Source: a virus
Taxonomy: Duplodnaviria; Heunggongvirae; Uroviricota; Caudoviricetes
Virus record (IMG/VR): IMGVR_UViG_2724679239_000005
Direction: 5' to 3' (one strand)
DNA length: 15,934 nucleotides
The notes under the pieces were generated by a model. That model was not told the DNA's origin. It made no database searches and saw only the letters and a list, made by a program, of their open reading frames with translations. Both the position numbers and the translations under genes were made by a program. Position 1 is the stretch's first letter. Every line of letters begins with the position of its first letter. Positions 4,118-13,238 of the stretch are shown piece after piece.

Positions 4118-5187
4118 CCGCCCAGAAGAAGATGTTTTCACTGGCTGGTATGTCGCCAAAATCCAGCAATATGACAGCAAAGTCAGACATTAATACAGCA
4201 GATACAAGCAAAGTTTATCATTTGCTGGTGGTAGGAGCGGGTGCCTTAACTATGTCAGAAATTACGGTCGATGGTGTTAGCGTTGAGAAGGTCAGCGGCT
4301 GCGCCAGAGAATTTCTGGTCGTAGATGACCTGTTCTGCTCGTGTAGTGACTCCACAAAAACATTCGTCCACGCGCGTGACGTTAACGAAATGAGCGCGAT
4401 GTACTGTGCATCTGGTGCTTCCAATAGCGAGTTTTCGGAGTCCATAAAAAAGAGCTTGCCGTTATGCGGCAACACGGTTTATGGTTATAAGGCACCTCAT
4501 AAAACGGGTGCCGGGATTGGCGTCCTGGTAAATCGAATGGCGACATATGACGCGCCGAGCGTCTTTTTTTATGTCGTAGGTCTGACTCACCCATTTTTTG
4601 GGCGTTGGTGTATAATCCAGCGCCTTTGTCAATCAATGGTGGCTCAGGCAGGGGCTTCTTCGGAAGCGCCGGTATCCATTCGAGCCGGTTACGCCAACCC
4701 TGTCTGGGCTACCACCAGCGAAATTGGCGTTTCCGGTGGTAGCGTTACATGCTATCGAATGGAGGCTGCCACATGCTGGCTACTACCCCTACCCAAAAAC
4801 CGCAATTTATCTGGATTATCGCCGCAGTTCGCCGCGATTGCCCGACAATTACCGCCAAAATTCATCATATTGCTGCCGAGTCTGAACGCGATGCTCGCCG
4901 TTCTCTGGTGCGCGATCACGTCTGCTTTTTTGCTGGTCGTATCCGCATGGAGGTGGCACATGATTAAAACCTACGATGTGCATATGGATCCCCTCGAACG
5001 CACAAGCCAGATCATCACACTGACAGAAGTGATTAACGACATTCTGGTGAGCAACTCTCCCTCACGAGACGAAAGACTGAAGGCGTTACTCGCGATATTG
5101 GATCTCGCCGTTCGTGACGTTCATTTCCTGCTGGAAGGTGGCGAAATGCCAGGAAAAACGGGGGCAACCAATGAAGAACTCAATTAA
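4111..5187 (+). CDS. Ash-family-like open frame (358 codons), true 3' extent uncertain; overlaps the Icd-like gene in another frame
   Basis: Strong SD GGAGG (4099-4103) 7 nt before ATG 4111. Contains a segment resembling the Ash-family signature ([26 protein letters not shown]). The frame stays open to 5187 and there are long shadow ORFs on both strands, so the coding extent is doubtful. Confidence 0.35.
4773..4967 (+). CDS. Host cell division inhibitor Icd-like protein, 64 aa
   Basis: Strong SD GGAGG (4761-4765) 7 nt before ATG 4773. Sequence [14 protein letters not shown]...[11 protein letters not shown]...FAGRI resembles Icd-like proteins of P1/P4-type elements as I recall them. Confidence 0.5.
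   Translation: MLATTPTQKPQFIWIIAAVRRDCPTITAKIHHIAAESERDARRSLVRDHVCFFAGRIRMEVAHD
4960..5187 (+). CDS. Small hypothetical protein, 75 aa; in-frame internal start of the 358-codon frame
   Basis: Strong SD GGAGG (4949-4953) 6 nt before ATG 4960. Overlaps the Icd-like stop (ATGATTAA). Confidence 0.3.
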   Translation: MIKTYDVHMDPLERTSQIITLTEVINDILVSNSPSRDERLKALLAILDLAVRDVHFLLEGGEMPGKTGATNEELN

Positions 5188-6450: not shown

Positions 6451-8802
6451 ATGCGAAACATTGATCTTATCCGTCAGGTTATCAGTGCGTCTGAAAACAA
6501 CTGGCCTCATGTGCTGGGCTGCCTGAACATAAATGTCCCTGACTCTCCGCGCCGTCATGCTCCCTGCCCTGCATGTGGGGGCAAAGATCGATTCCGGTTC
6601 GATGACAACGGGCGCGGTAGCTTCATCTGTAATCAGTGCGGCGCTGGTGATGGGCTGGATTTAATTAAACGCGTAAATAACTGCGACACAACAGAGGCGG
6701 CGCTTCTTGCCGCTGATGTTCTGGGTATTGATTACCGGACAACGGAAACACCAGAAGCCACCAGCCAGAAACGGGAACAACTGGAAGCCGAGCGCCAGCG
6801 ACGCGAACAGGAGCGCCTGAAAAGGGCAGAGAAGGACGAACAACAAAGACGGGATACGTTTTCCCGTCAGTTTGATGACATGCGCAGAAAGGCTGTAAAC
6901 GGCAAATCTGATTATCTGGTTGCGAAAGGGGTAGGTGATTTTACATTCCCCGTGTTGCCAGATGGATCTCTATTGCTGGCGCTGGTGGATAAATCCGGCG
7001 CAGTCACCGCAGCACAGACTATTACCTCACATGGTGAAAAAAGACTCCTGACAGGTTCGGCAAAGCGGGGGGCATATCACGCCATAAACGCACAGAAACG
7101 ACCTCACAGCATCATAATTGCTGAGGGGGTGGCTACCGCCCTGTCGTGCCATTTAATTCGCCCTGACGCAATGACAGTGGCAGCAATCGACGCTGGCAAC
7201 CTGTTGCCAGTAGCGGAAGTCATGCGCAGAACATATCCACAGGCACAAATCATCATTGCCGCAGATAACGATCACCAGCAAGGAAACTCCGAAAGTGGAG
7301 GGATCAACACGGGGAAAGATGCCGCAGAGAGGGCCGCTATTTCCGTAGCTGGCTGGGTGTCTCTGCCACCGACTGACTATAAAGCCGACTGGAACGACTA
7401 TCACCAACAACACGGGCTGGCGGCAGCCACAGCAGCATTTAAAGATTCGATGTACCAGCCACGGGGGAAAGGGGCGCAGGTGAAAAATCACAAACAGTCA
7501 GTCGGGGCGCTGAATGAGATCAGTTCTGGCGAGGTGTTAAGCGATGATGAAATTGCTGTCCTCGAAGAAATCAACCGGACGTTTACGCATGTCACCATCG
7601 GCGGGAAACACAAGGTGGTGTCGCTAAAGCCTTCTCAAACCGGCGGTGTATCGCACGTTTTCGAGGATTTATCACAATTTCAGCATTATTTTCATCATAA
7701 ACCGAGAGTCGCCAGAAAGCTGGCGGGATCGGCGTGGCTGTCATGGAGTGGGAAGAACTACAAGCCAGGAGGCGTAGGATTTTATCCAGTACCAGACAAA
7801 TGCCCTGACGATGTTTTTAATCTGTATGAGGGGCTGGCACTGGAACCAATTGAAGGAGATTGCACGGTATACCTTAATCACCTGTTGCAGGTTGTCTGTG
7901 CCGGTAATGAGGAGGCATACCAATATCTTATCCAGTGGATGGCGCACATTATCCAAAAGCCTGATGAAAAACCGTCCGTGGCAATCGTGATGAAATCTGT
8001 CCCGGGCACAGGGAAAGGCACAACGGTTAAACCGCTGCTGCAAATACTGGGGCAGTACGCCGCCCACATTAACGGGGCGGGACATATTTCAGGGCGCTTC
8101 AATTCAATACTTGCTAACAAGCTACTGGTATTTGCTGACGAAGTGACGATCCACAAGCCGTCTGAAGCTGACAGACTTAAAGCGATTATTAGCGAACCGA
8201 CGTTTAACCTTGAGCGCAAGGGAATTGATGCTGAACCAATGCCGAATTTTGCCCGGTTGATATTTGCCAGTAACAGCACACAGGTATTACAGGCAGGGAT
8301 AAGAGAGCGTCGCTATCTCGTGCTTGAGCCATCTCCTGAAAAAGCACAGAGTCGGGAGTATTTTGATCGGCTGTACAGTTGGCTTAATGATGGCGGTGCC
8401 GCAAAGTTGCTTTGGCATCTTAAAGGGGTGGATCTCTCAGGTTTTGACCCTCAACGAGCGCCACAGACCGATGCCTTACGTGAAGAAATCTTGCTGGGGC
8501 TGTCTGGCGTTGAATTGTTTCTTTATGGCGAGCTAATCAATGAACCTCCGTTTAATGGCGAAGTCCGTTTGTTTGCAAAGGATATGGTTAGTCGATTTGT
8601 AGCGTGGTCGCTTGAGCGTGGGGAAAAGCTTAAAGAGCCAGCAGCCAGATCACTACTGGGTAAATCACTTGCACAAATGGGGCTGGTGAAGCATGGAAGA
8701 CCAGACCGAGGGAATGGCGTGTTCTACGAACTACCAGAGGTCGGAGTTCTACAGGCTGCGTTTGCCCGTCTGATCGGTATGGGGGGTTATGATGTTTTTT
8801 AA
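6451..8802 (+). CDS. Phage/plasmid primase-helicase, P4 alpha-like (Zn-ribbon, TOPRIM primase, C-terminal P-loop helicase domain)
   Basis: 783 aa. N-terminal Cys4 motif CPACGGKDRFRF...FICNQCG; TOPRIM-like acidic motifs IIIAEGVATA and IIIAADNDHQ; P-loop-like MKSVPGTGKGTT and Walker-B-like LLVFADEV. SD GGGGG 5 nt before ATG 6451. Confidence 0.92.
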   Translation: MRNIDLIRQVISASENNWPHVLGCLNINVPDSPRRHAPCPACGGKDRFRFDDNGRGSFICNQCGAGDGLDLIKRVNNCDTTEAALLAADVLGIDYRTTETPEATSQKREQLEAERQRREQERLKRAEKDEQQRRDTFSRQFDDMRRKAVNGKSDYLVAKGVGDFTFPVLPDGSLLLALVDKSGAVTAAQTITSHGEKRLLTGSAKRGAYHAINAQKRPHSIIIAEGVATALSCHLIRPDAMTVAAIDAGNLLPVAEVMRRTYPQAQIIIAADNDHQQGNSESGGINTGKDAAERAAISVAGWVSLPPTDYKADWNDYHQQHGLAAATAAFKDSMYQPRGKGAQVKNHKQSVGALNEISSGEVLSDDEIAVLEEINRTFTHVTIGGKHKVVSLKPSQTGGVSHVFEDLSQFQHYFHHKPRVARKLAGSAWLSWSGKNYKPGGVGFYPVPDKCPDDVFNLYEGLALEPIEGDCTVYLNHLLQVVCAGNEEAYQYLIQWMAHIIQKPDEKPSVAIVMKSVPGTGKGTTVKPLLQILGQYAAHINGAGHISGRFNSILANKLLVFADEVTIHKPSEADRLKAIISEPTFNLERKGIDAEPMPNFARLIFASNSTQVLQAGIRERRYLVLEPSPEKAQSREYFDRLYSWLNDGGAAKLLWHLKGVDLSGFDPQRAPQTDALREEILLGLSGVELFLYGELINEPPFNGEVRLFAKDMVSRFVAWSLERGEKLKEPAARSLLGKSLAQMGLVKHGRPDRGNGVFYELPEVGVLQAAFARLIGMGGYDVF

Positions 8803-8830
8803 TATAGTCTTTTTACAAGAAGATCGTTTT

Positions 8831-8936
8831 TACCTGTACCACCTATACCACTTTGCTAATTCAGTATTAAAAACAGTGCGTTATAGTGGTACAGGTCAAT
8901 ATCTTACCTATACCAGACCTGTACCACCTATACCAT
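8831..8936. repeat. Iteron cluster A: 18-bp perfect direct repeat CCTGTACCACCTATACCA (8833-8850, 8918-8935) plus inverted copy GGTACAGG (8888-8895) and CCTATACCAG (8907-8916)
   Basis: Read directly in the 176-bp gap just after the primase stop. Candidate origin or primase-binding repeats by analogy to the P4 ori/crr octamer iterons. Confidence 0.5.
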
Positions 8937-8978
8937 TAACAAACGCATTTCTTCTGGCTGGCTGAGAGGGAACAACCA

Positions 8979-9209
8979 ATGATGAGCACACCATTTTACA
9001 AAGTGCGCCAGTTAGCTTCTTCCTCTGGCTGGCAGCTACGGTTTGAGGGGCGTTCAGACTGGCTACCCATTGCGGCATGGGCGAATGTTGAAATGTGTAT
9101 TGACGGCGATACCGTTGAAATCATTATTCCCTGCGTGGCAAGTCGGGACGGCTGTATAGAGCCAACAGATATGGCAGCAGAAATCAGAGAGGTAAAACAT
9201 GAACAATAA
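8979..9209 (+). CDS. Hypothetical protein, 76 aa
   Basis: SD GAGGG 9 nt before ATG 8979. Stop overlaps the downstream start region. Confidence 0.45.
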   Translation: MMSTPFYKVRQLASSSGWQLRFEGRSDWLPIAAWANVEMCIDGDTVEIIIPCVASRDGCIEPTDMAAEIREVKHEQ

Positions 9210-9936
9210 CTATTGCATACTGCAGGGAATGACCAGAACGGAGCGCGAAGAATTAAAAAGTTTCGCTACACAGTGCGGGAATGCTGGCGACATCCAAAGT
9301 CTGGAACGCACTTTAATTATGATTGCGCACTGGATGCGCCAGGGGCAAAGAGTTTCATTTACTGAATATGCCAGCCAGTGGACAGAGGCACAGCGCGAAC
9401 GGAGCGACGGTAATCACTCAACACCCGAAATGGCGAAGCAATGGCCTTTCAGTGGTAAACGCTGTATCAGTCCCGGTGGTTCAGATTATTACCCTGCTGG
9501 TGTGGGAGATGAGCCATGTTGTGACGAGACTGAAATCCGCCACGCAGTGACAGTAATTACCGCTGAATACCCACAATTTAACCTTGACGGACTGGCGCTC
9601 CACAACCGGAATGCGGACTGGGAAAACCCGCTTGATAACCCGTCATTTATCGTATCGGCGAAAAGCTGCCTGAGATGGATCAGAGACAACGGGATGAGTA
9701 ATGCCCAGATTGAGAGCTTCCCGCAGGATAACCCCACATCTGACACGTTGAAGCATGAAGTGGAGCGATATAACCAGATAAACCACCAGCACAGTGATCA
9801 CCCGCACTATATCCCCAACGGAGCATTTATTGCGGCGATGGTGGCAAGCGGCTACAAGGTTAAGCCAGCGGGAAGAATGAACGCATTTTTCAATATTTCA
9901 AAAAAGGGATTATGTGCTGCTATGGGTAAAAATTAA
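9199..9936 (+). CDS. Hypothetical protein, 245 aa, Cys/His-containing
   Basis: SD AGAGAGG 6 nt before ATG 9199. No motif recognised. Confidence 0.55.
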   Translation: MNNNYCILQGMTRTEREELKSFATQCGNAGDIQSLERTLIMIAHWMRQGQRVSFTEYASQWTEAQRERSDGNHSTPEMAKQWPFSGKRCISPGGSDYYPAGVGDEPCCDETEIRHAVTVITAEYPQFNLDGLALHNRNADWENPLDNPSFIVSAKSCLRWIRDNGMSNAQIESFPQDNPTSDTLKHEVERYNQINHQHSDHPHYIPNGAFIAAMVASGYKVKPAGRMNAFFNISKKGLCAAMGKN

Positions 9937-9940
9937 ATAA

Positions 9941-10046
9941 ATGGTACAGGTCTGTACAGGTGGGGAGAGGTCATTTTTACCCACCTGTACCACCTGCAGG
10001 CCGCGCCACACAAGGGTTTGTGACATGGTGGTACAGGTGGTACAGC
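9941..10046. repeat. Iteron cluster B: GGTACAGG (9943-9950), TGTACAGGTGG (9953-9963), inverted CCACCTGTACC (9981-9991), tandem GGTGGTACAGGTGGTACAG (10027-10045)
   Basis: Read directly. Includes an inverted repeat TACAGGTGG / CCACCTGTA (9955-9963 and 9981-9989) and the same core as cluster A. Confidence 0.5.
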
Positions 10047-10410
10047 AAAAACAGCGATTTTCTTTATAAGGTATGTTTTGCTCATCTGGCAGACGGAGGT
10101 ATTCGCTGCGGTTTGGCACATAGCCCAGAACAGCAAAGAGTTTTACGAGACTTTTGTAAAATCCAGTGTACAAGGGCGTGACGTTTTTGAAGGTGAGCAC
10201 TACGAAATTTTCGTAGTTCAAAAAATAGCCTCTGAGATGTTGTTATGCCTGTTCAGCAAACCATCCGCATAGCTGATCGCGAATCAAATTACCAATGGAG
10301 CCAGAAGCAAGGGCAGAACTGGAAAGCGCCTGCCGTGAAGAGTAATGCGACTCCATAAATATAGTTTTTAGAGTCCATAAAAAAACTGTCAAAACCTGAC
10401 ATACAGAACG

Positions 10411-10443
10411 ATGCCACCAGCTACTGAACGGTGGCATTTTTTT
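10411..10443 (+). terminator. Rho-independent terminator (8-bp stem ATGCCACC/GGTGGCAT, 11-nt loop, 7-T run)
   Basis: Stem 10411-10418 pairs with 10430-10437, followed by a T run to 10443. Only the + strand has the U-tract. Confidence 0.55.
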
Positions 10444-10538
10444 GTGCTATTTGTTTCATATTTTGCAATCACAATGATGAATGTTGCGTTTTATGAAACT
10501 ATAATGACTGTTGTTTTATACAGTTATAAGGGGGCGTT

Positions 10539-10712
10539 ATGGCTATTTCAGTAAAGCCAGTATTGATAAGTGAGAAGCAAATGGAAGCGATAAAGAAAAT
10601 TCAGGAGGAGCAGCGTAAAAAATCAGAGGTAGGAGTTGCGCCAACGATCCACGAAATTGCTCGGGGATTAATGGATAAGGCGCTGGCTTACACTTTAACT
10701 GGACGTGGGTAA
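10539..10712 (+). CDS. Small protein, 57 aa, possible ribbon-helix-helix DNA-binding regulator
   Basis: Not in the supplied ORF track; translated by hand as MAISVKPVLISEKQMEAIKKIQEEQRKKSEVGVAPTIHEIARGLMDKALAYTLTGRG. SD AAGGGGG 4-5 nt before the ATG. Short strand-helix-helix pattern compatible with RHH; the fold is inferred. Confidence 0.4.
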   Translation: MAISVKPVLISEKQMEAIKKIQEEQRKKSEVGVAPTIHEIARGLMDKALAYTLTGRG

Positions 10713-10716
10713 ATTT

Positions 10717-12060
10717 ATGGCTACGTGGCAACAGGGTATTAATTCTGGTGGTTTTCTGGCTGGCATCGGTGCGCAAAATGAGAATGCGCCAAAGGCAAGC
10801 GACATTAACGCAACGCTTGGTCTGATCCGCGAAAACAATGAACTGGCTCGCTCAGGTGCAAATAACGTTGCTCTGACAGGTCTTCGTGGTCTGGCTGGAG
10901 TTGCTGACATTTATAAGCAGCAGCAACAGCAGGAACGTAAAGCGGCATTCCAGAAAGGTTATGCAGATGCTTATGCGTCCGGTGACAGGGAGCAGATGCG
11001 TAATCTTATTACAGCATTCCCAGAAGAGTTTGAGGAAGTCCGTAAAGGGATGAGTTATGTCGATGATGCTCAAAGGGATGATTATGGCAATCTGGCGCTC
11101 AAAGCACAGGTAGCCTCATCGCTTGGTCAGGGCGCATTTGGCAGGTTCATGATGGATAATGAGCAGGAGATGCGTCGTTTAGGTATCCCTCCAGAAACTA
11201 TTGCTGAAATGCAGGTTAATGACCCGCAGGGCTTCCAGCATTTCGCAGGTAATCTGGCGCTGTTTTCTCTCGGTCATGAGAAGTATTTCGATATCAAAGA
11301 TCAAATGGAAGGTCGTCGACTTGAGCAAGGGCGACTGGATGAAAGTATGCGTCAGGCTGACATGGAGAACGCGAGAGGATGGGCAAATATCCAGAACGCT
11401 CAACTAGACAGGGCTCAGCGAGCACAAATTCACTCAGATGAGATGGGATTGAAGCTAATGGAGCTGGGGCAAAAAGGTAAGCCGTCAGCAGACTTAATTA
11501 AGGGATTAAATTCTGACATTACCAATTTTGGCAAAAATTATAACTCTGTCAGAGCGGCGGCAAACTCTCTGCAAGCCCTTAGCAAGGTAAATACTGGCGC
11601 TGCCCAACTTGGGATTATCTTCAACTACATGAAATCTCTTGACCCGCAGTCAGTCGTTCGTGAAGGCGAACAGGTTCAGGTAATGCGGTCTGATGGCATA
11701 TGGGGACAAATCAAAGGATACATAGACCAGCTTAATGCTGGAAACGGCCTGTCGCAGGAGGCAAAGGATAACATTGTTAACGCCGCAAAAATCAACGCCA
11801 ATGCTATGGGGCAGCAGTTTAACCAGCAGGTTGACGAGTATCTCGATACATATGGAGAAACTATTCCTCAGGGGCTAAGAAAAAGCCTTGAAAGAAGGAA
11901 AGCGAAGCTATTTGACGATGTTTCCGGGCAGCCTACATCACAGGCTGGCACTGGACAGGCAAAAGCGGCAACCGGAGGAATATCAGAAGGCGCAACGGCA
12001 ACCAACCCTAAAACTGGTCAGAAAATCATTTACAGGAACGGAAAATGGCAGCAAATGTAA
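10717..12060 (+). CDS. Hypothetical protein, 447 aa, Gly-rich N-terminus, Gln/Ala-rich with long predicted coiled-coil; alternative GTG start at 10705
   Basis: Long ORF with coding-like composition. Checked for Walker A (GxxxxGK[ST]) and common nuclease or protease motifs; none seen. Confidence 0.65.
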   Translation: MATWQQGINSGGFLAGIGAQNENAPKASDINATLGLIRENNELARSGANNVALTGLRGLAGVADIYKQQQQQERKAAFQKGYADAYASGDREQMRNLITAFPEEFEEVRKGMSYVDDAQRDDYGNLALKAQVASSLGQGAFGRFMMDNEQEMRRLGIPPETIAEMQVNDPQGFQHFAGNLALFSLGHEKYFDIKDQMEGRRLEQGRLDESMRQADMENARGWANIQNAQLDRAQRAQIHSDEMGLKLMELGQKGKPSADLIKGLNSDITNFGKNYNSVRAAANSLQALSKVNTGAAQLGIIFNYMKSLDPQSVVREGEQVQVMRSDGIWGQIKGYIDQLNAGNGLSQEAKDNIVNAAKINANAMGQQFNQQVDEYLDTYGETIPQGLRKSLERRKAKLFDDVSGQPTSQAGTGQAKAATGGISEGATATNPKTGQKIIYRNGKWQQM

Positions 12061-13238
12061 TCTTACCGGAAGGTTTTGTGCTCGATGAACAACCTGATAA
12101 CTCACAGTTTCCTGATAGTTCACAGCTTCCTGATGGTTTTGTGCTTGATGCCCAACCAGAACAGCAGCAATCACCTTTGGTTTCACCAGAGGAAAATTCC
12201 AGACAGGAAAATGTTGTTAATAATGCTAACGGTTTCGACCGTTTTATGTATGGCGTTCTCAGTGGATTGATGGATGTTGGTAAAGGTGTTGGCCTGTTTC
12301 AGGATATGACACCAGAAGAGCAAGCCGCAATTCAGTCTCTACAGCAGAAGTTAGCGGCAAAACCATCAACCGCACAAGATGTTGGTGAGTTCGTTGGACA
12401 AGCAGCGCCATTTGTTAGTGGTGGTGGGATTATTTCTCAGGTTCCCAAAGGGGCGGCAAGACTGGCTGCCGCCGCAGGGCTTGGTGCTGGAGAAGGGGCT
12501 ATTGTAGCCAATGGAACAAATAGCGATGTTGCTTCCGGCGCTGCTATTGGCGCTGTGGCTGGCCCTGTAGCCGAACTTGCTGGCCCTGCAATTAATAAAA
12601 TAGCTGGGAAATTAACCAAGAAGAATGTTTCTTCGATTCCAGATATTGAGGGGATTACTCCTGCCGAAGAGAAAATTCGTAAGTTATCTGCACAAGGCAA
12701 CCCAAATCTTGCCTCTTCGCTTGAAGGGCTAGATCTAAAACCTCAGAAAGAAATTGTTGAGGCTGCAAATAGGCTTCATGTTGATTCAGTTCTTCCTTCT
12801 CATTTATCAGGAAATGAGCAATACCAAGCTGTAGAGCAAGCCCTAAAGTCACGGACAGGATCAGCGTTAAAAGCTCAAGAAGATAAAGCAATAAGCGAAT
12901 TAGCCTCTAGTGCTGGCAAGATAATCGATGATGTTGCTGGTGCGCCAGATGCGTTAGCTATGAGCGAAAAATATATTTATCAGATAAATAGTAGAATGGA
13001 AGCACTAAAAAACCGTAGTGATCAGTTATATAAACGTGTTGATTCCGCTCTATCACCAAGAACAAAAGTCGAAGCAAATAACACAAGCACTATGCTGGAA
13101 AAAATCGCTGATGATTTAGGAGGGTGGGATAATCTTGACCCAATAGAAAAGCGAGTTTTTACAGCAATAAACCCCGGCCCAGATAGCATCCTAACGTATG
13201 CAAATTTAAACAGGCAAAGGCGTTTAGTTGGTGATTAG
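12045..13238 (+). pseudogene. N-terminal fragment (397 codons) of a roughly 705-aa gene interrupted by IS2; stop codon TAG supplied by the first bases of IS2
   Basis: ATG 12045 with SD AGGA 7 nt upstream, overlapping the end of the 447-aa gene by 16 nt. The frame runs into the IS2 left end, where TAG at 13236-13238 terminates it. Confidence 0.7.

What the first reader, a model, noticed from the sequence alone, without database searches (positions are those of the whole stretch)
9941..10046. Second iteron cluster with a palindromic arrangement of the same core, about 1 kb from the first
The same core recurs as GGTACAGG, TGTACAGGTGG, CCACCTGTACC and GGTGGTACAGGTGGTACAG. One pair forms an inverted repeat TACAGGTGG / CCACCTGTA around an A/T-rich centre, which looks like an unwinding element. 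Two clusters about 1 kb apart bracketing a two-gene module mirror the bipartite ori/crr organisation of P4.
Basis: partly seen in the sequence, partly recalled or inferred. Interest (0 to 1): 0.5.

Follow-up and report, generated by a model that had tools for sequence, protein, structure and literature searches.

The report
Second mirror lobe of satellite origin
The repeats are real: they form the second, mirror-image half of a two-part replication origin in a P4-related island of E. coli, a layout that recurs in related elements but whose role has not been tested.

Summary
Window 9942-10047 holds six copies (three exact, three degenerate) of a 9-10 bp iteron, TGGTAYAGGT. The core GGTACAGG occurs six times in the window, all in the two clusters (0.2 expected). 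Cluster B is an inverted copy of cluster A (8832-8935), which lies 30 bp after the stop codon of a primase-helicase gene (6451-8802). Both have the layout two tandem iterons, ~35-nt spacer, one inverted iteron, two or three tandem iterons. P4 ori has this layout, and the relative orientation matches P4 ori versus crr. The same two mirror lobes follow homologous rep genes in Salmonella, Buttiauxella, Xenorhabdus, Sodalis and Citrobacter, with gaps from about 15 bp to about 1 kb. Other helicase types on the same island backbone carry different iterons in the same layout; one has its second lobe 6.1 kb away. Iteron columns are conserved (83%) and spacers are not (43%). The "A/T-rich unwinding centre" is wrong: the interior of lobe B is the most stable DNA in the region (spacer 64% GC) and carries a conserved GC-rich motif that I cannot explain. 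One intact Enterobacter island lacks lobe B, so it may be auxiliary. Best reading: a Rep-bound second arm of a bipartite origin, analogous to crr. This is a new variant of a known kind; function is untested.

The parts
6451..8802 (+). Primase-helicase (Rep), 783 aa: Zn-ribbon + Toprim primase, DUF5906 SF3 helicase, and a predicted C-terminal winged-helix domain (aa 645-783)
7504..10137 (+). Exchangeable replicon cassette: helicase/WH half of rep + lobe A + ORF76 + ORF245 + lobe B
   Evidence: Syntenic E. coli islands (W60, TOK-001) share the backbone and Rep aa 1-351 (85% identity). They then switch to a DUF927 helicase with different iterons. Backbone homology resumes at window 10137-10140.
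8786..8831 (.). A/T-rich outer flank of lobe A, the least stable duplex near the origin
   Evidence: The 40-mer 8786-8825 has deltaG -42.0 kcal/mol against a window mean of -54.2 +/- 4.0, and ranks 7th least stable in the window.
8832..8935 (.).
8979..9209 (+). ORF76, a small protein of unknown function that is conserved between the two lobes
   Evidence: Homologues lie between lobes A and B in Salmonella, Buttiauxella and five Xenorhabdus loci, and just after lobe A in Pantoea and Enterobacter, which lack lobe B. No Pfam, PHROG or NCBIfam hit. Only 12 database homologues.
9199..9936 (+). ORF245, unknown function. It lies between the lobes here but after lobe B in Xenorhabdus
   Evidence: A 66%-identical homologue follows a RepA-type helicase in another E. 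coli island.
9942..10047 (.). Lobe B (the finding): iterons B1-B3 (+) at a 10-bp period, B4 (-), a 36-nt GC-rich spacer, then B5-B6 (+). It is an inverted copy of lobe A
9993..10019 (+). Conserved GC-rich element in the lobe B spacer, CCTGCAGGCCGCGCCACACAAGGGTTT, abutting the lone inverted iteron
   Evidence: GGCGCGGCCTGYAG is exact in the window, Buttiauxella L016/L019 and Methylobacter L017/L018. It is also present in Citrobacter L156, and in diverged form (GCCTGAAAGCCGCGCCACATATGGGTTT) in E. coli L148, whose iterons are unrelated.
9981..10040 (.). Perfect 14-bp inverted repeat (9981-9994 / 10027-10040) formed by iterons B4 and B5 plus flanking bases. It could form a hairpin or cruciform
   Evidence: I6. 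ssDNA fold -23.8 / -24.8 kcal/mol, z -3.2 / -4.0.
10048..10080 (.). A/T-rich outer flank of lobe B (CAAAAACAGCGATTTTCTTTATAAGG), which mirrors the outer flank of lobe A
   Evidence: I1; z +1.8; conserved in Salmonella and plasmid-borne copies

Best explanation
Cluster B is the second, mirror-image lobe of a two-lobed iteron origin. The origin belongs to the island's primase-helicase (Rep), and rep half, lobes and the intervening ORFs travel together as one cassette. SHOWN: lobe B has the same iteron and the same internal layout as lobe A, in inverted orientation. Both lobes are inherited together with the helicase/C-terminal half of rep. The two-lobe layout recurs across genera and across different iteron specificities. 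The iterons are conserved while the spacers diverge. INFERRED: Rep binds both lobes through its predicted C-terminal winged-helix domain. Rep-Rep contacts pair the lobes and loop out ORF76-ORF245. Melting and helicase self-loading start in the A/T-rich DNA of lobe A (its spacer 8850-8886 and outer flank 8786-8831). Lobe B, with its GC-rich interior, acts as a cis-acting auxiliary site comparable to P4 crr. It would raise the local Rep concentration and/or position the second, oppositely oriented hexamer. It is probably stimulatory or regulatory rather than strictly essential.
For: The motif is confined to the two clusters. Lobe A and the reverse complement of lobe B align colinearly, within the window and with six other taxa. 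Pairwise identity is 83% in iteron columns against 43% in non-iteron columns for lobe B, and 89% against 43% for lobe A.

Cassette swap: islands with the same backbone and an 85%-identical N-terminal primase carry a DUF927 helicase. They have GTTGGTTCA iterons instead, and homology resumes about 90 bp beyond lobe B. The window's own island keeps an orphan GTTGGTTCA lobe farther downstream, so the incoming cassette brought both of its own lobes.

The TGGTAYAG iterons track the Rep family and not ORF76 or ORF245. They follow homologous rep genes in Buttiauxella, Xenorhabdus, Sodalis, Citrobacter, Salmonella, Methylobacter, Methylomonas and Alishewanella, including loci that lack both ORFs. Both lobes change together where specificity changes: Endozoicomonas has GGTTGGCG, E. 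coli L148 has GTAGGGAT and L150 has GGGTTAGAT.

The layout equals that of P4 ori, and the relative orientation equals P4 crr versus ori. The Rep C-terminus is predicted to be a winged helix. P4 alpha and SaPI Reps bind their iterons through C-terminal winged-helix domains (PMC4234260; PMC9371898). E. coli PICI origins are iteron sets located 3' of pri-rep, and the EcCICFT073 rep-ori segment drives replication (PMC6092414). In plasmid-borne remnants without rep, the lobe B iterons are decaying.
Against: There is no experimental evidence for this element. An Enterobacter ludwigii island at the same yicC site has an intact 752-aa rep, lobe A and both ORFs, but no lobe B within 10 kb on either side. 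Lobe B is therefore not needed for the island to persist. Three marine relatives have only a compact 2+2 palindrome. Lobe B's spacer is GC-rich, so it cannot be a second melting site of the same kind as lobe A. The winged-helix assignment is generic: Foldseek gives no match at E<=0.001 and shows no specific match to the P4 origin-binding domain.
Confidence: 0.6

Rival explanations
1. Lobe B is a negative copy-control or incompatibility locus. Extra Rep-binding iterons outside the minimal origin would titrate Rep or handcuff lobe A, as incA does in P1 or incC in F, limiting replication of the excised island.
For: Lobe B has the same iterons as the origin and is separated from it by genes. It is naturally absent from an otherwise intact Enterobacter island, as expected for a dispensable control locus. 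It lacks an A/T-rich melting spacer. In W60-type islands the second lobe lies 6.1 kb away, too far to be part of a compact origin.
Against: Lobe B copies the whole origin layout, spacer length included, rather than being a plain iteron array. In many relatives the two lobes abut and form one ~220-250 bp palindromic unit directly after rep. The best-studied relative of this kind of element, P4, uses its second cluster positively (established knowledge: Flensburg & Calendar 1987; crr is annotated as the 'cis required region' in NC_001609).
Confidence: 0.22
2. The repeats are operators. Binding at lobes A and B, by Rep or by another island protein, regulates transcription of ORF76-ORF245 or of the downstream cargo, with no role in replication.
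For: The lobes bracket a two-gene module, and lobe A sits 44 bp upstream of the ORF76 start. ORF76 is conserved between the lobes in Enterobacterales.
Against: The same iterons and layout occur with the same Rep family where ORF76 and ORF245 are absent and the lobes abut (L019, L016, L156, L157). ORF245 lies outside the lobes in Xenorhabdus. No sigma-70-like promoter was found in 9900-10140. The iterons co-vary with the helicase/WH half of rep and with no other gene.
Confidence: 0.08
3. Lobe B is a non-functional relic of an inverted duplication, or of recombination between two elements.
For: The orphan DUF927-type lobe in this very island shows that unused lobes can persist. L010 shows rearranged lobes. 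Lobe B is absent in L158 and L006.
Against: Lobe B is present, with conserved iterons and diverged spacers, in at least six genera with Rep identities down to ~50%. It carries its own conserved GC-rich element, which lobe A lacks. The iterons decay where rep is missing.
Confidence: 0.07

Closest known systems
Bacteriophage P4 ori / crr bipartite origin with alpha protein
   Same: Both use a multifunctional primase-helicase with a homologous Zn-ribbon/Toprim primase domain (33% identity). Both have short iterons at a period of about one helical turn, in two separate clusters. The lobe layout is 3 iterons, 1 inverted, ~35-nt spacer, 2 iterons. The clusters are inverted relative to each other with the 2-iteron ends outward, and one cluster lies immediately 3' of the rep gene. 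The island also has P4-type immunity RNA (C4/isrK) and Ash and AlpA-like genes.
   Different: The iteron is TGGTAYAG, not TGTTCACC. The helicase is DUF5906-type, and the C-terminal domain shows no detectable sequence similarity to the P4 alpha origin-binding domain. Both lobes lie downstream of rep, 1 kb apart, rather than flanking the alpha operon 4.7 kb apart. P4 crr is a tandem duplicate of 120 bp, whereas lobe B is single. Lobe B's spacer is GC-rich, while both P4 spacers are AT-rich (17% and 31% GC). No sid/delta/psu genes and no P4 cos homology were found.
PICI / SaPI replication origins (iterons 3' of pri-rep)
   Same: The origin lies directly after the rep stop codon. Iterons in opposite orientations flank an AT-rich region. 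Rep is a self-loading helicase with a C-terminal winged-helix domain. The element has integrase-AlpA-primase island organisation (PMC6092414; PMC9371898). Lobe A alone fits this description.
   Different: Here there is a second full copy of the array, inverted, about 1 kb away, with genes in between and a GC-rich spacer. That arrangement does not appear in the passages I read of those two papers (term searches only; the figure showing the E. coli PICI origins is not held).
Iteron-plasmid control loci (P1 incA, F incC)
   Same: A second array of origin-type iterons is separated from the origin by coding DNA, and it could pair with the origin through the initiator (my own knowledge of those systems).
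   Different: Those initiators are RepA/RepE-type proteins, not primase-helicases. Their control arrays do not reproduce the origin's internal layout. Their role is negative and they are dispensable, which is untested here.
Palindromic origins of SF3-helicase viruses (SV40 / polyoma large T, papillomavirus E1)
   Same: An SF3 helicase-initiator, inverted recognition elements, and A/T-rich DNA on the outer flanks. Two hexamers are loaded in opposite orientation (my own knowledge).
   Different: Those origins are compact (about 64 bp). There is no sequence relationship, and here the two halves can be separated by kilobases.

Membership tests
P4 ori/crr bipartite origin | Initiator is a P4 alpha-type primase-helicase with a C-terminal origin-binding domain | tested here: inconclusive
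   The primase domain is homologous (33% identity over 335 aa). The helicase and C-terminus show no BLASTP similarity to alpha. The C-terminus is predicted to be a winged helix, but only generically.
P4 ori/crr bipartite origin | Type I iteron TGTTCACC | tested here: not met
   The iteron here is TGGTAYAGGT. The P4 iterons are listed.
P4 ori/crr bipartite origin | Two separate clusters of the same iteron on one replicon, inverted relative to each other | tested here: met
   Lobes at 8832-8935 and 9942-10047. P4 orientation.
P4 ori/crr bipartite origin | Lobe layout 3 iterons, 1 inverted, ~35-nt spacer, 2 iterons | tested here: met
   Start offsets are 0, 10, 20, 41(inverted), 87, 96 in lobe B. 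In P4 ori they are 0, 10, 21, 43(inverted), 86, 96.
P4 ori/crr bipartite origin | Both clusters required in cis for replication | not testable with these tools
   This needs deletion analysis. A natural island without lobe B exists, but its replication competence is unknown.
P4 ori/crr bipartite origin | Clusters flank the alpha operon (about 4.7 kb apart) | tested here: not met
   Both lobes lie downstream of rep, 1006 bp apart.
PICI/SaPI-type origin | Iterons immediately 3' of rep | tested here: not met
   Lobe A starts 30 bp after the stop codon and meets this feature. Lobe B, the finding, starts 1140 bp after it.
PICI/SaPI-type origin | At least two iterons on each side of an AT-rich region, pointing in opposite directions | tested here: not met
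   Lobe B has the opposed iterons, but its spacer is 64% GC. Lobe A's spacer is 30% GC.
PICI/SaPI-type origin | Rep helicase with a C-terminal winged-helix iteron-binding domain | tested here: inconclusive
PICI/SaPI-type origin | The rep-ori segment drives autonomous replication | not testable with these tools
   This has been done for EcCICFT073 (PMC6092414) but not for this element.
Iteron copy-control locus (P1 incA / F incC type) | Origin-type iterons outside the minimal origin | tested here: met
Iteron copy-control locus (P1 incA / F incC type) | Dispensable, and its deletion raises copy number | not testable with these tools
   The only hint is its natural absence in L158.
Iteron copy-control locus (P1 incA / F incC type) | RepA/RepE-family initiator | tested here: not met
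   Rep is a primase plus SF3 helicase.

The most novel reading that the evidence does not exclude
Origins of P4/PICI-type satellites with primase-SF3-helicase initiators are in general 'split palindromes'. They consist of two mirror-image iteron lobes that work as a pair and tolerate anything from 0 to about 6 kb of inserted DNA between them. As a result, small genes (ORF76) and even whole cargo regions come to sit inside the origin. The two lobes are functionally different: lobe A melts, while lobe B carries a conserved GC-rich element (GGCGCGGCCTGYAG...) that is independent of iteron specificity. That element would be read by a still unknown partner, either the DUF5906 helicase core or a host factor. 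Replicon cassettes carrying both lobes are exchanged between islands by recombination inside the rep gene, leaving orphan lobes behind.
Probability: 0.3. Interest if true: 0.6.

Novelty: new variant of a known kind. Interest (0 to 1): 0.42.

Why it matters
P4's need for a second, distant cis element (crr) has remained a peculiarity of one satellite. This window and its relatives suggest that a paired, mirror-image iteron layout is common among enterobacterial satellites with primase-helicase initiators. The distance between the halves is free to vary, and the whole replicon (helicase/DNA-binding half of rep plus both lobes) is swapped as a unit. That offers natural spacing and deletion variants for studying how SF3-type self-loading helicases assemble at origins. 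It also gives a practical rule for annotating origins and replicon types in satellite islands. Finally, it flags a conserved GC-rich origin element that has no known reader.

Tried and rejected
- A/T-rich unwinding centre inside lobe B: rejected by base composition and nearest-neighbour duplex stability.
- Structured RNA: Rfam found nothing in 8800-10500, only C4 and isrK at 4492-4719.
- Promoter in lobe B: none found by the consensus scan.
- Lobe B as part of a second tandem element or an att site: rejected. The backbone junction is at 10137, and the candidate att repeats lie at the island ends.
- ORF76 or ORF245 as the repeat-binding protein: rejected, because the iterons occur with the Rep family where both ORFs are absent. 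Neither ORF matches any family, and ORF76 has only 12 homologues.
- Scan of viral contigs for two tandem iterons: more than 120 hits. None of the 120 stretches returned had a Rep homologue, so they are mostly chance or coding repeats.
- Looking for this replicon in phage or plasmid records: phage proteins are at most about 32% identical. The plasmid hits are IS-flanked remnants carrying a decaying lobe B.
- Specific fold match to the P4 origin-binding domain: not obtained, only generic winged-helix matches.
- Locating EcCICFT073 in CFT073 to compare its tested ori: two regions were fetched and the island was not found, so I abandoned this.
- Pantoea stewartii L006 as a lobe-B-less counterexample: discounted, because its rep is N-terminally truncated.

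Full report
**What is there**

The window is an E. coli chromosomal island inserted between yicC and dinD. It is present nearly unchanged in 128 of 5426 complete E. coli genomes. Reading the + strand, the island encodes:
- an integrase;
- an AlpA-like HTH protein;
- AntA;
- an Ash-family ORF that overlaps P4-type immunity RNAs (isrK 4492-4569, C4 4632-4719);
- a 783-aa primase-helicase (6451-8802) with Zn-ribbon, Toprim and DUF5906 domains.

Two ORFs of unknown function follow: ORF76 at 8979-9209 and ORF245 at 9199-9936. The finding itself, lobe B, is at 9942-10047. GGTACAGG occurs six times in 15.9 kb, only in these two clusters, against 0.2 expected.

**Anatomy**

The unit is a 9-10 bp iteron, TGGTAYAGGT.
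- Lobe A reads, on the + strand: two tandem iterons (-), a 37-nt spacer, one iteron (+), then three iterons (-).
- Lobe B reads: three iterons (+) at an exact 10-bp period (the second and third degenerate), one iteron (-), a 36-nt spacer, then two iterons (+).

Lobe B is thus the reverse complement of lobe A in layout. The 2-iteron ends and their A-tract flanks point outward. This is also the layout of P4 ori. Iteron start offsets in P4 ori are 0, 10, 21, 43(inverted), 86, 96, against 0, 10, 20, 41(inverted), 87, 96 in lobe B. P4 crr, which lies immediately 3' of the alpha gene, is inverted relative to P4 ori in the same outward-facing way.

The two lobes differ in one respect. The spacer of lobe A is 30% GC, and the DNA from 8786 to 8940 is unstable. 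The spacer of lobe B is 64% GC, and 9980-10019 is the most stable 40-mer in the region. It is not an unwinding element.

**To which gene do the repeats belong?**

Three lines of evidence point to Rep.

1. A natural cassette swap. About 390 further E. coli genomes match only window 10137-10500. Two of them that I inspected, W60 and TOK-001, have the same island backbone. Their Rep N-terminal 351 aa are 85% identical to the window's, but these are followed by a DUF927 helicase and by GTTGGTTCA iterons. The exchanged unit is therefore window 7504-10137: the helicase and C-terminal half of rep, lobe A, the two ORFs and lobe B.

2. Distribution across relatives. A scan of one genome per species with the helicase half, plus look-ups of individual homologues, found TGGTAYAG iterons directly after homologous rep genes. 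The hosts were Salmonella, Buttiauxella, Xenorhabdus, Sodalis, Citrobacter, Methylobacter, Methylomonas and Alishewanella. ORF76 and ORF245 are absent from many of these loci, so the iterons track Rep and not those ORFs.

3. Joint change of both lobes. Where the iteron changes, it changes in both lobes together. Endozoicomonas has GGTTGGCG. E. coli L148, with a D5_N/Pox_D5-type helicase on the same backbone, has GTAGGGAT. E. coli L150 has GGGTTAGAT.

**Is the second lobe a conserved feature?**

Mostly yes. The distance between the mirror lobes varies widely:
- about 15-40 bp in Buttiauxella L019/L016/L015, Citrobacter L156, and E. coli L148 and L150;
- about 115 bp in Sodalis L157;
- about 280 bp in five Xenorhabdus species, where the gap holds only the ORF76 homologue and ORF245 lies after lobe B;
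- about 1.0-1.05 kb in the window, Buttiauxella L007 and Salmonella L154, where the gap holds ORF76 and ORF245.

In the DUF927-type island of W60, an inverted copy of the proximal lobe lies 6.1 kb downstream, beyond the cargo genes.

The window's own island (PA45B) still carries that distal GTTGGTTCA lobe as an orphan, about 1 kb beyond the window's end. It looks like a relic of a replaced DUF927 replicon. It also shows that the incoming DUF5906 cassette arrived with both of its lobes.

Across orthologous lobe B copies, iteron columns are 83% identical and the other columns 43%. For lobe A the figures are 89% and 43%. There is a caveat: the alignment is anchored on the iterons. In IS-flanked remnants on large plasmids that lack rep, the lobe B iterons are decaying.

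**Counter-evidence**

An Enterobacter ludwigii island at the same yicC site has an intact rep (65% identity), lobe A and both ORFs. It has no lobe B within 10 kb on either side. Pantoea stewartii also lacks lobe B, but its rep is truncated. Three marine relatives have only a compact 2+2 palindrome. Lobe B is therefore not indispensable for an island to persist in a chromosome. That argues against a strict crr-like requirement and leaves room for a dispensable regulatory role.

**Mechanism**

My best reading, at about 0.6 confidence, is that lobe B is the Rep-bound second arm of a bipartite origin. Rep bound at both lobes would pair them and loop out ORF76-ORF245. Melting and self-loading would start in the A/T-rich DNA of lobe A. 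Lobe B would act as an auxiliary cis site comparable to crr.

The main rival, at about 0.22, is a negative copy-control or handcuffing locus of the P1 incA type. That reading fits the natural deletion and the missing melting spacer. It fits less well with the fact that lobe B reproduces the whole origin layout and abuts lobe A in many relatives. Pure operator and relic readings are less likely, for the reasons given in the rival entries. None of these can be settled without experiments.

**Unexplained**

The lobe B spacer carries a conserved GC-rich element, CCTGCAGGCCGCGCCACACAAGGGTTT (window 9993-10019). It abuts the lone inverted iteron. Its core is exact in Buttiauxella and Methylobacter and present in Citrobacter. 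It recurs in diverged form in lobe B of E. coli L148, whose iterons are unrelated. It is absent from lobe A everywhere and from Xenorhabdus lobe B. It therefore does not follow iteron specificity, and its reader is unknown.

**Novelty**

Iteron origins 3' of pri-rep in E. coli PICIs (PMC6092414) and the P4 ori/crr pair are both known. What I did not find in the passages I read of the satellite papers is the following combination:
- a full mirror-image second lobe at variable distance;
- genes sitting between the lobes;
- an AT-rich versus GC-rich asymmetry between the lobes;
- exchange of the replicon cassette with both lobes, leaving orphan lobes behind.

I rate this a new variant of a known kind, of moderate interest.

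Noticed in passing
L001 22217-22337 (about window coordinate 16916-17036, just beyond the window end): Orphan iteron lobe with six GTTGGTTCA repeats, upstream of a PerC-family gene. It is nearly identical to the distal lobe of DUF927-type islands (W60, L003 14971-15092). The resident Rep is of a different type, so this looks like a relic of a replaced replicon.
   Followed up: yes
window 9993-10019: Conserved GC-rich element in the lobe B spacer (GGCGCGGCCTGYAG plus CACAAGGGTTT). It is shared with Buttiauxella, Citrobacter and Methylobacter, and with an E. coli cassette that has unrelated iterons. Its function is unknown.
   Followed up: partly
window 6451-7504 versus L003 6059-7090: The rep gene is mosaic. 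Its N-terminal primase (aa 1-351) is 85% identical to that of DUF927-type proteins, and 75-77% identical to D5_N/Pox_D5-type proteins on the same backbone. The recombination breakpoint therefore lies inside the gene, between the primase and the helicase.
   Followed up: partly
window 4492-4719: isrK (67 bits) and C4 antisense RNA (79.5 bits) lie inside the Ash-family ORF. This is P4-type immunity, and P4 DNA homology is limited to this region (P4 8347-8646).
   Followed up: partly
window 10705-13238 and beyond: The cargo includes homologues of P22-type DNA ejection proteins (Inj_translocase, E 2.5e-73; PHROG 917 and 6704). This is unusual content for an island with no capsid or tail genes. No sid, psu or delta genes and no P4 cos homology were found.
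   Followed up: no
window 10137-10500: A backbone segment conserved in about 390 additional E. coli genomes, whatever the rep type. It is unannotated and contains inverted repeats (TACGAGACTTTTGTA / TACGAAATTTTCGTA), a possible 35-codon ORF (10245-10352) and an intrinsic terminator at about 10408-10440. It could be a small RNA or a small protein gene.
   Followed up: no
window 8979-9209: ORF76 is a narrow family (12 database homologues, no domain). In Enterobacterales it always sits right after lobe A, between the lobes wherever lobe B is present. It is a candidate origin-associated regulator.
   Followed up: partly
L158 12259-13500 (Enterobacter ludwigii): An island at the same yicC site has an intact rep, lobe A, ORF76 and ORF245, but no lobe B within 10 kb. 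This is a natural lobe B deletion that could be tested for replication.
   Followed up: yes
L010 2675-2775 and 7305-7325 (Xenorhabdus ehlersii): Lobe A next to rep is reduced to about 1.5 iterons, while a complete lobe A copy lies 4.6 kb upstream between AntA- and Ash-like genes. This is either a rearrangement or a P4-like placement of the two lobes on either side of rep.
   Followed up: partly
L001 5280-5303 and 23047-23070: A 24-bp direct repeat (22 of 24 identical) at the yicC-proximal and dinD-proximal ends. These are candidate attL/attR sites and would delimit an island of about 17.8 kb.
   Followed up: no
L007 8679-9113, L154 7690-8127, L148 6959-7393, L161 6574-7017: An SSB gene lies shortly after the second lobe in several related islands and plasmid remnants (directly after it in some, after one small ORF in L148), often with ProQ/FinO and PerC genes.
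   Followed up: no
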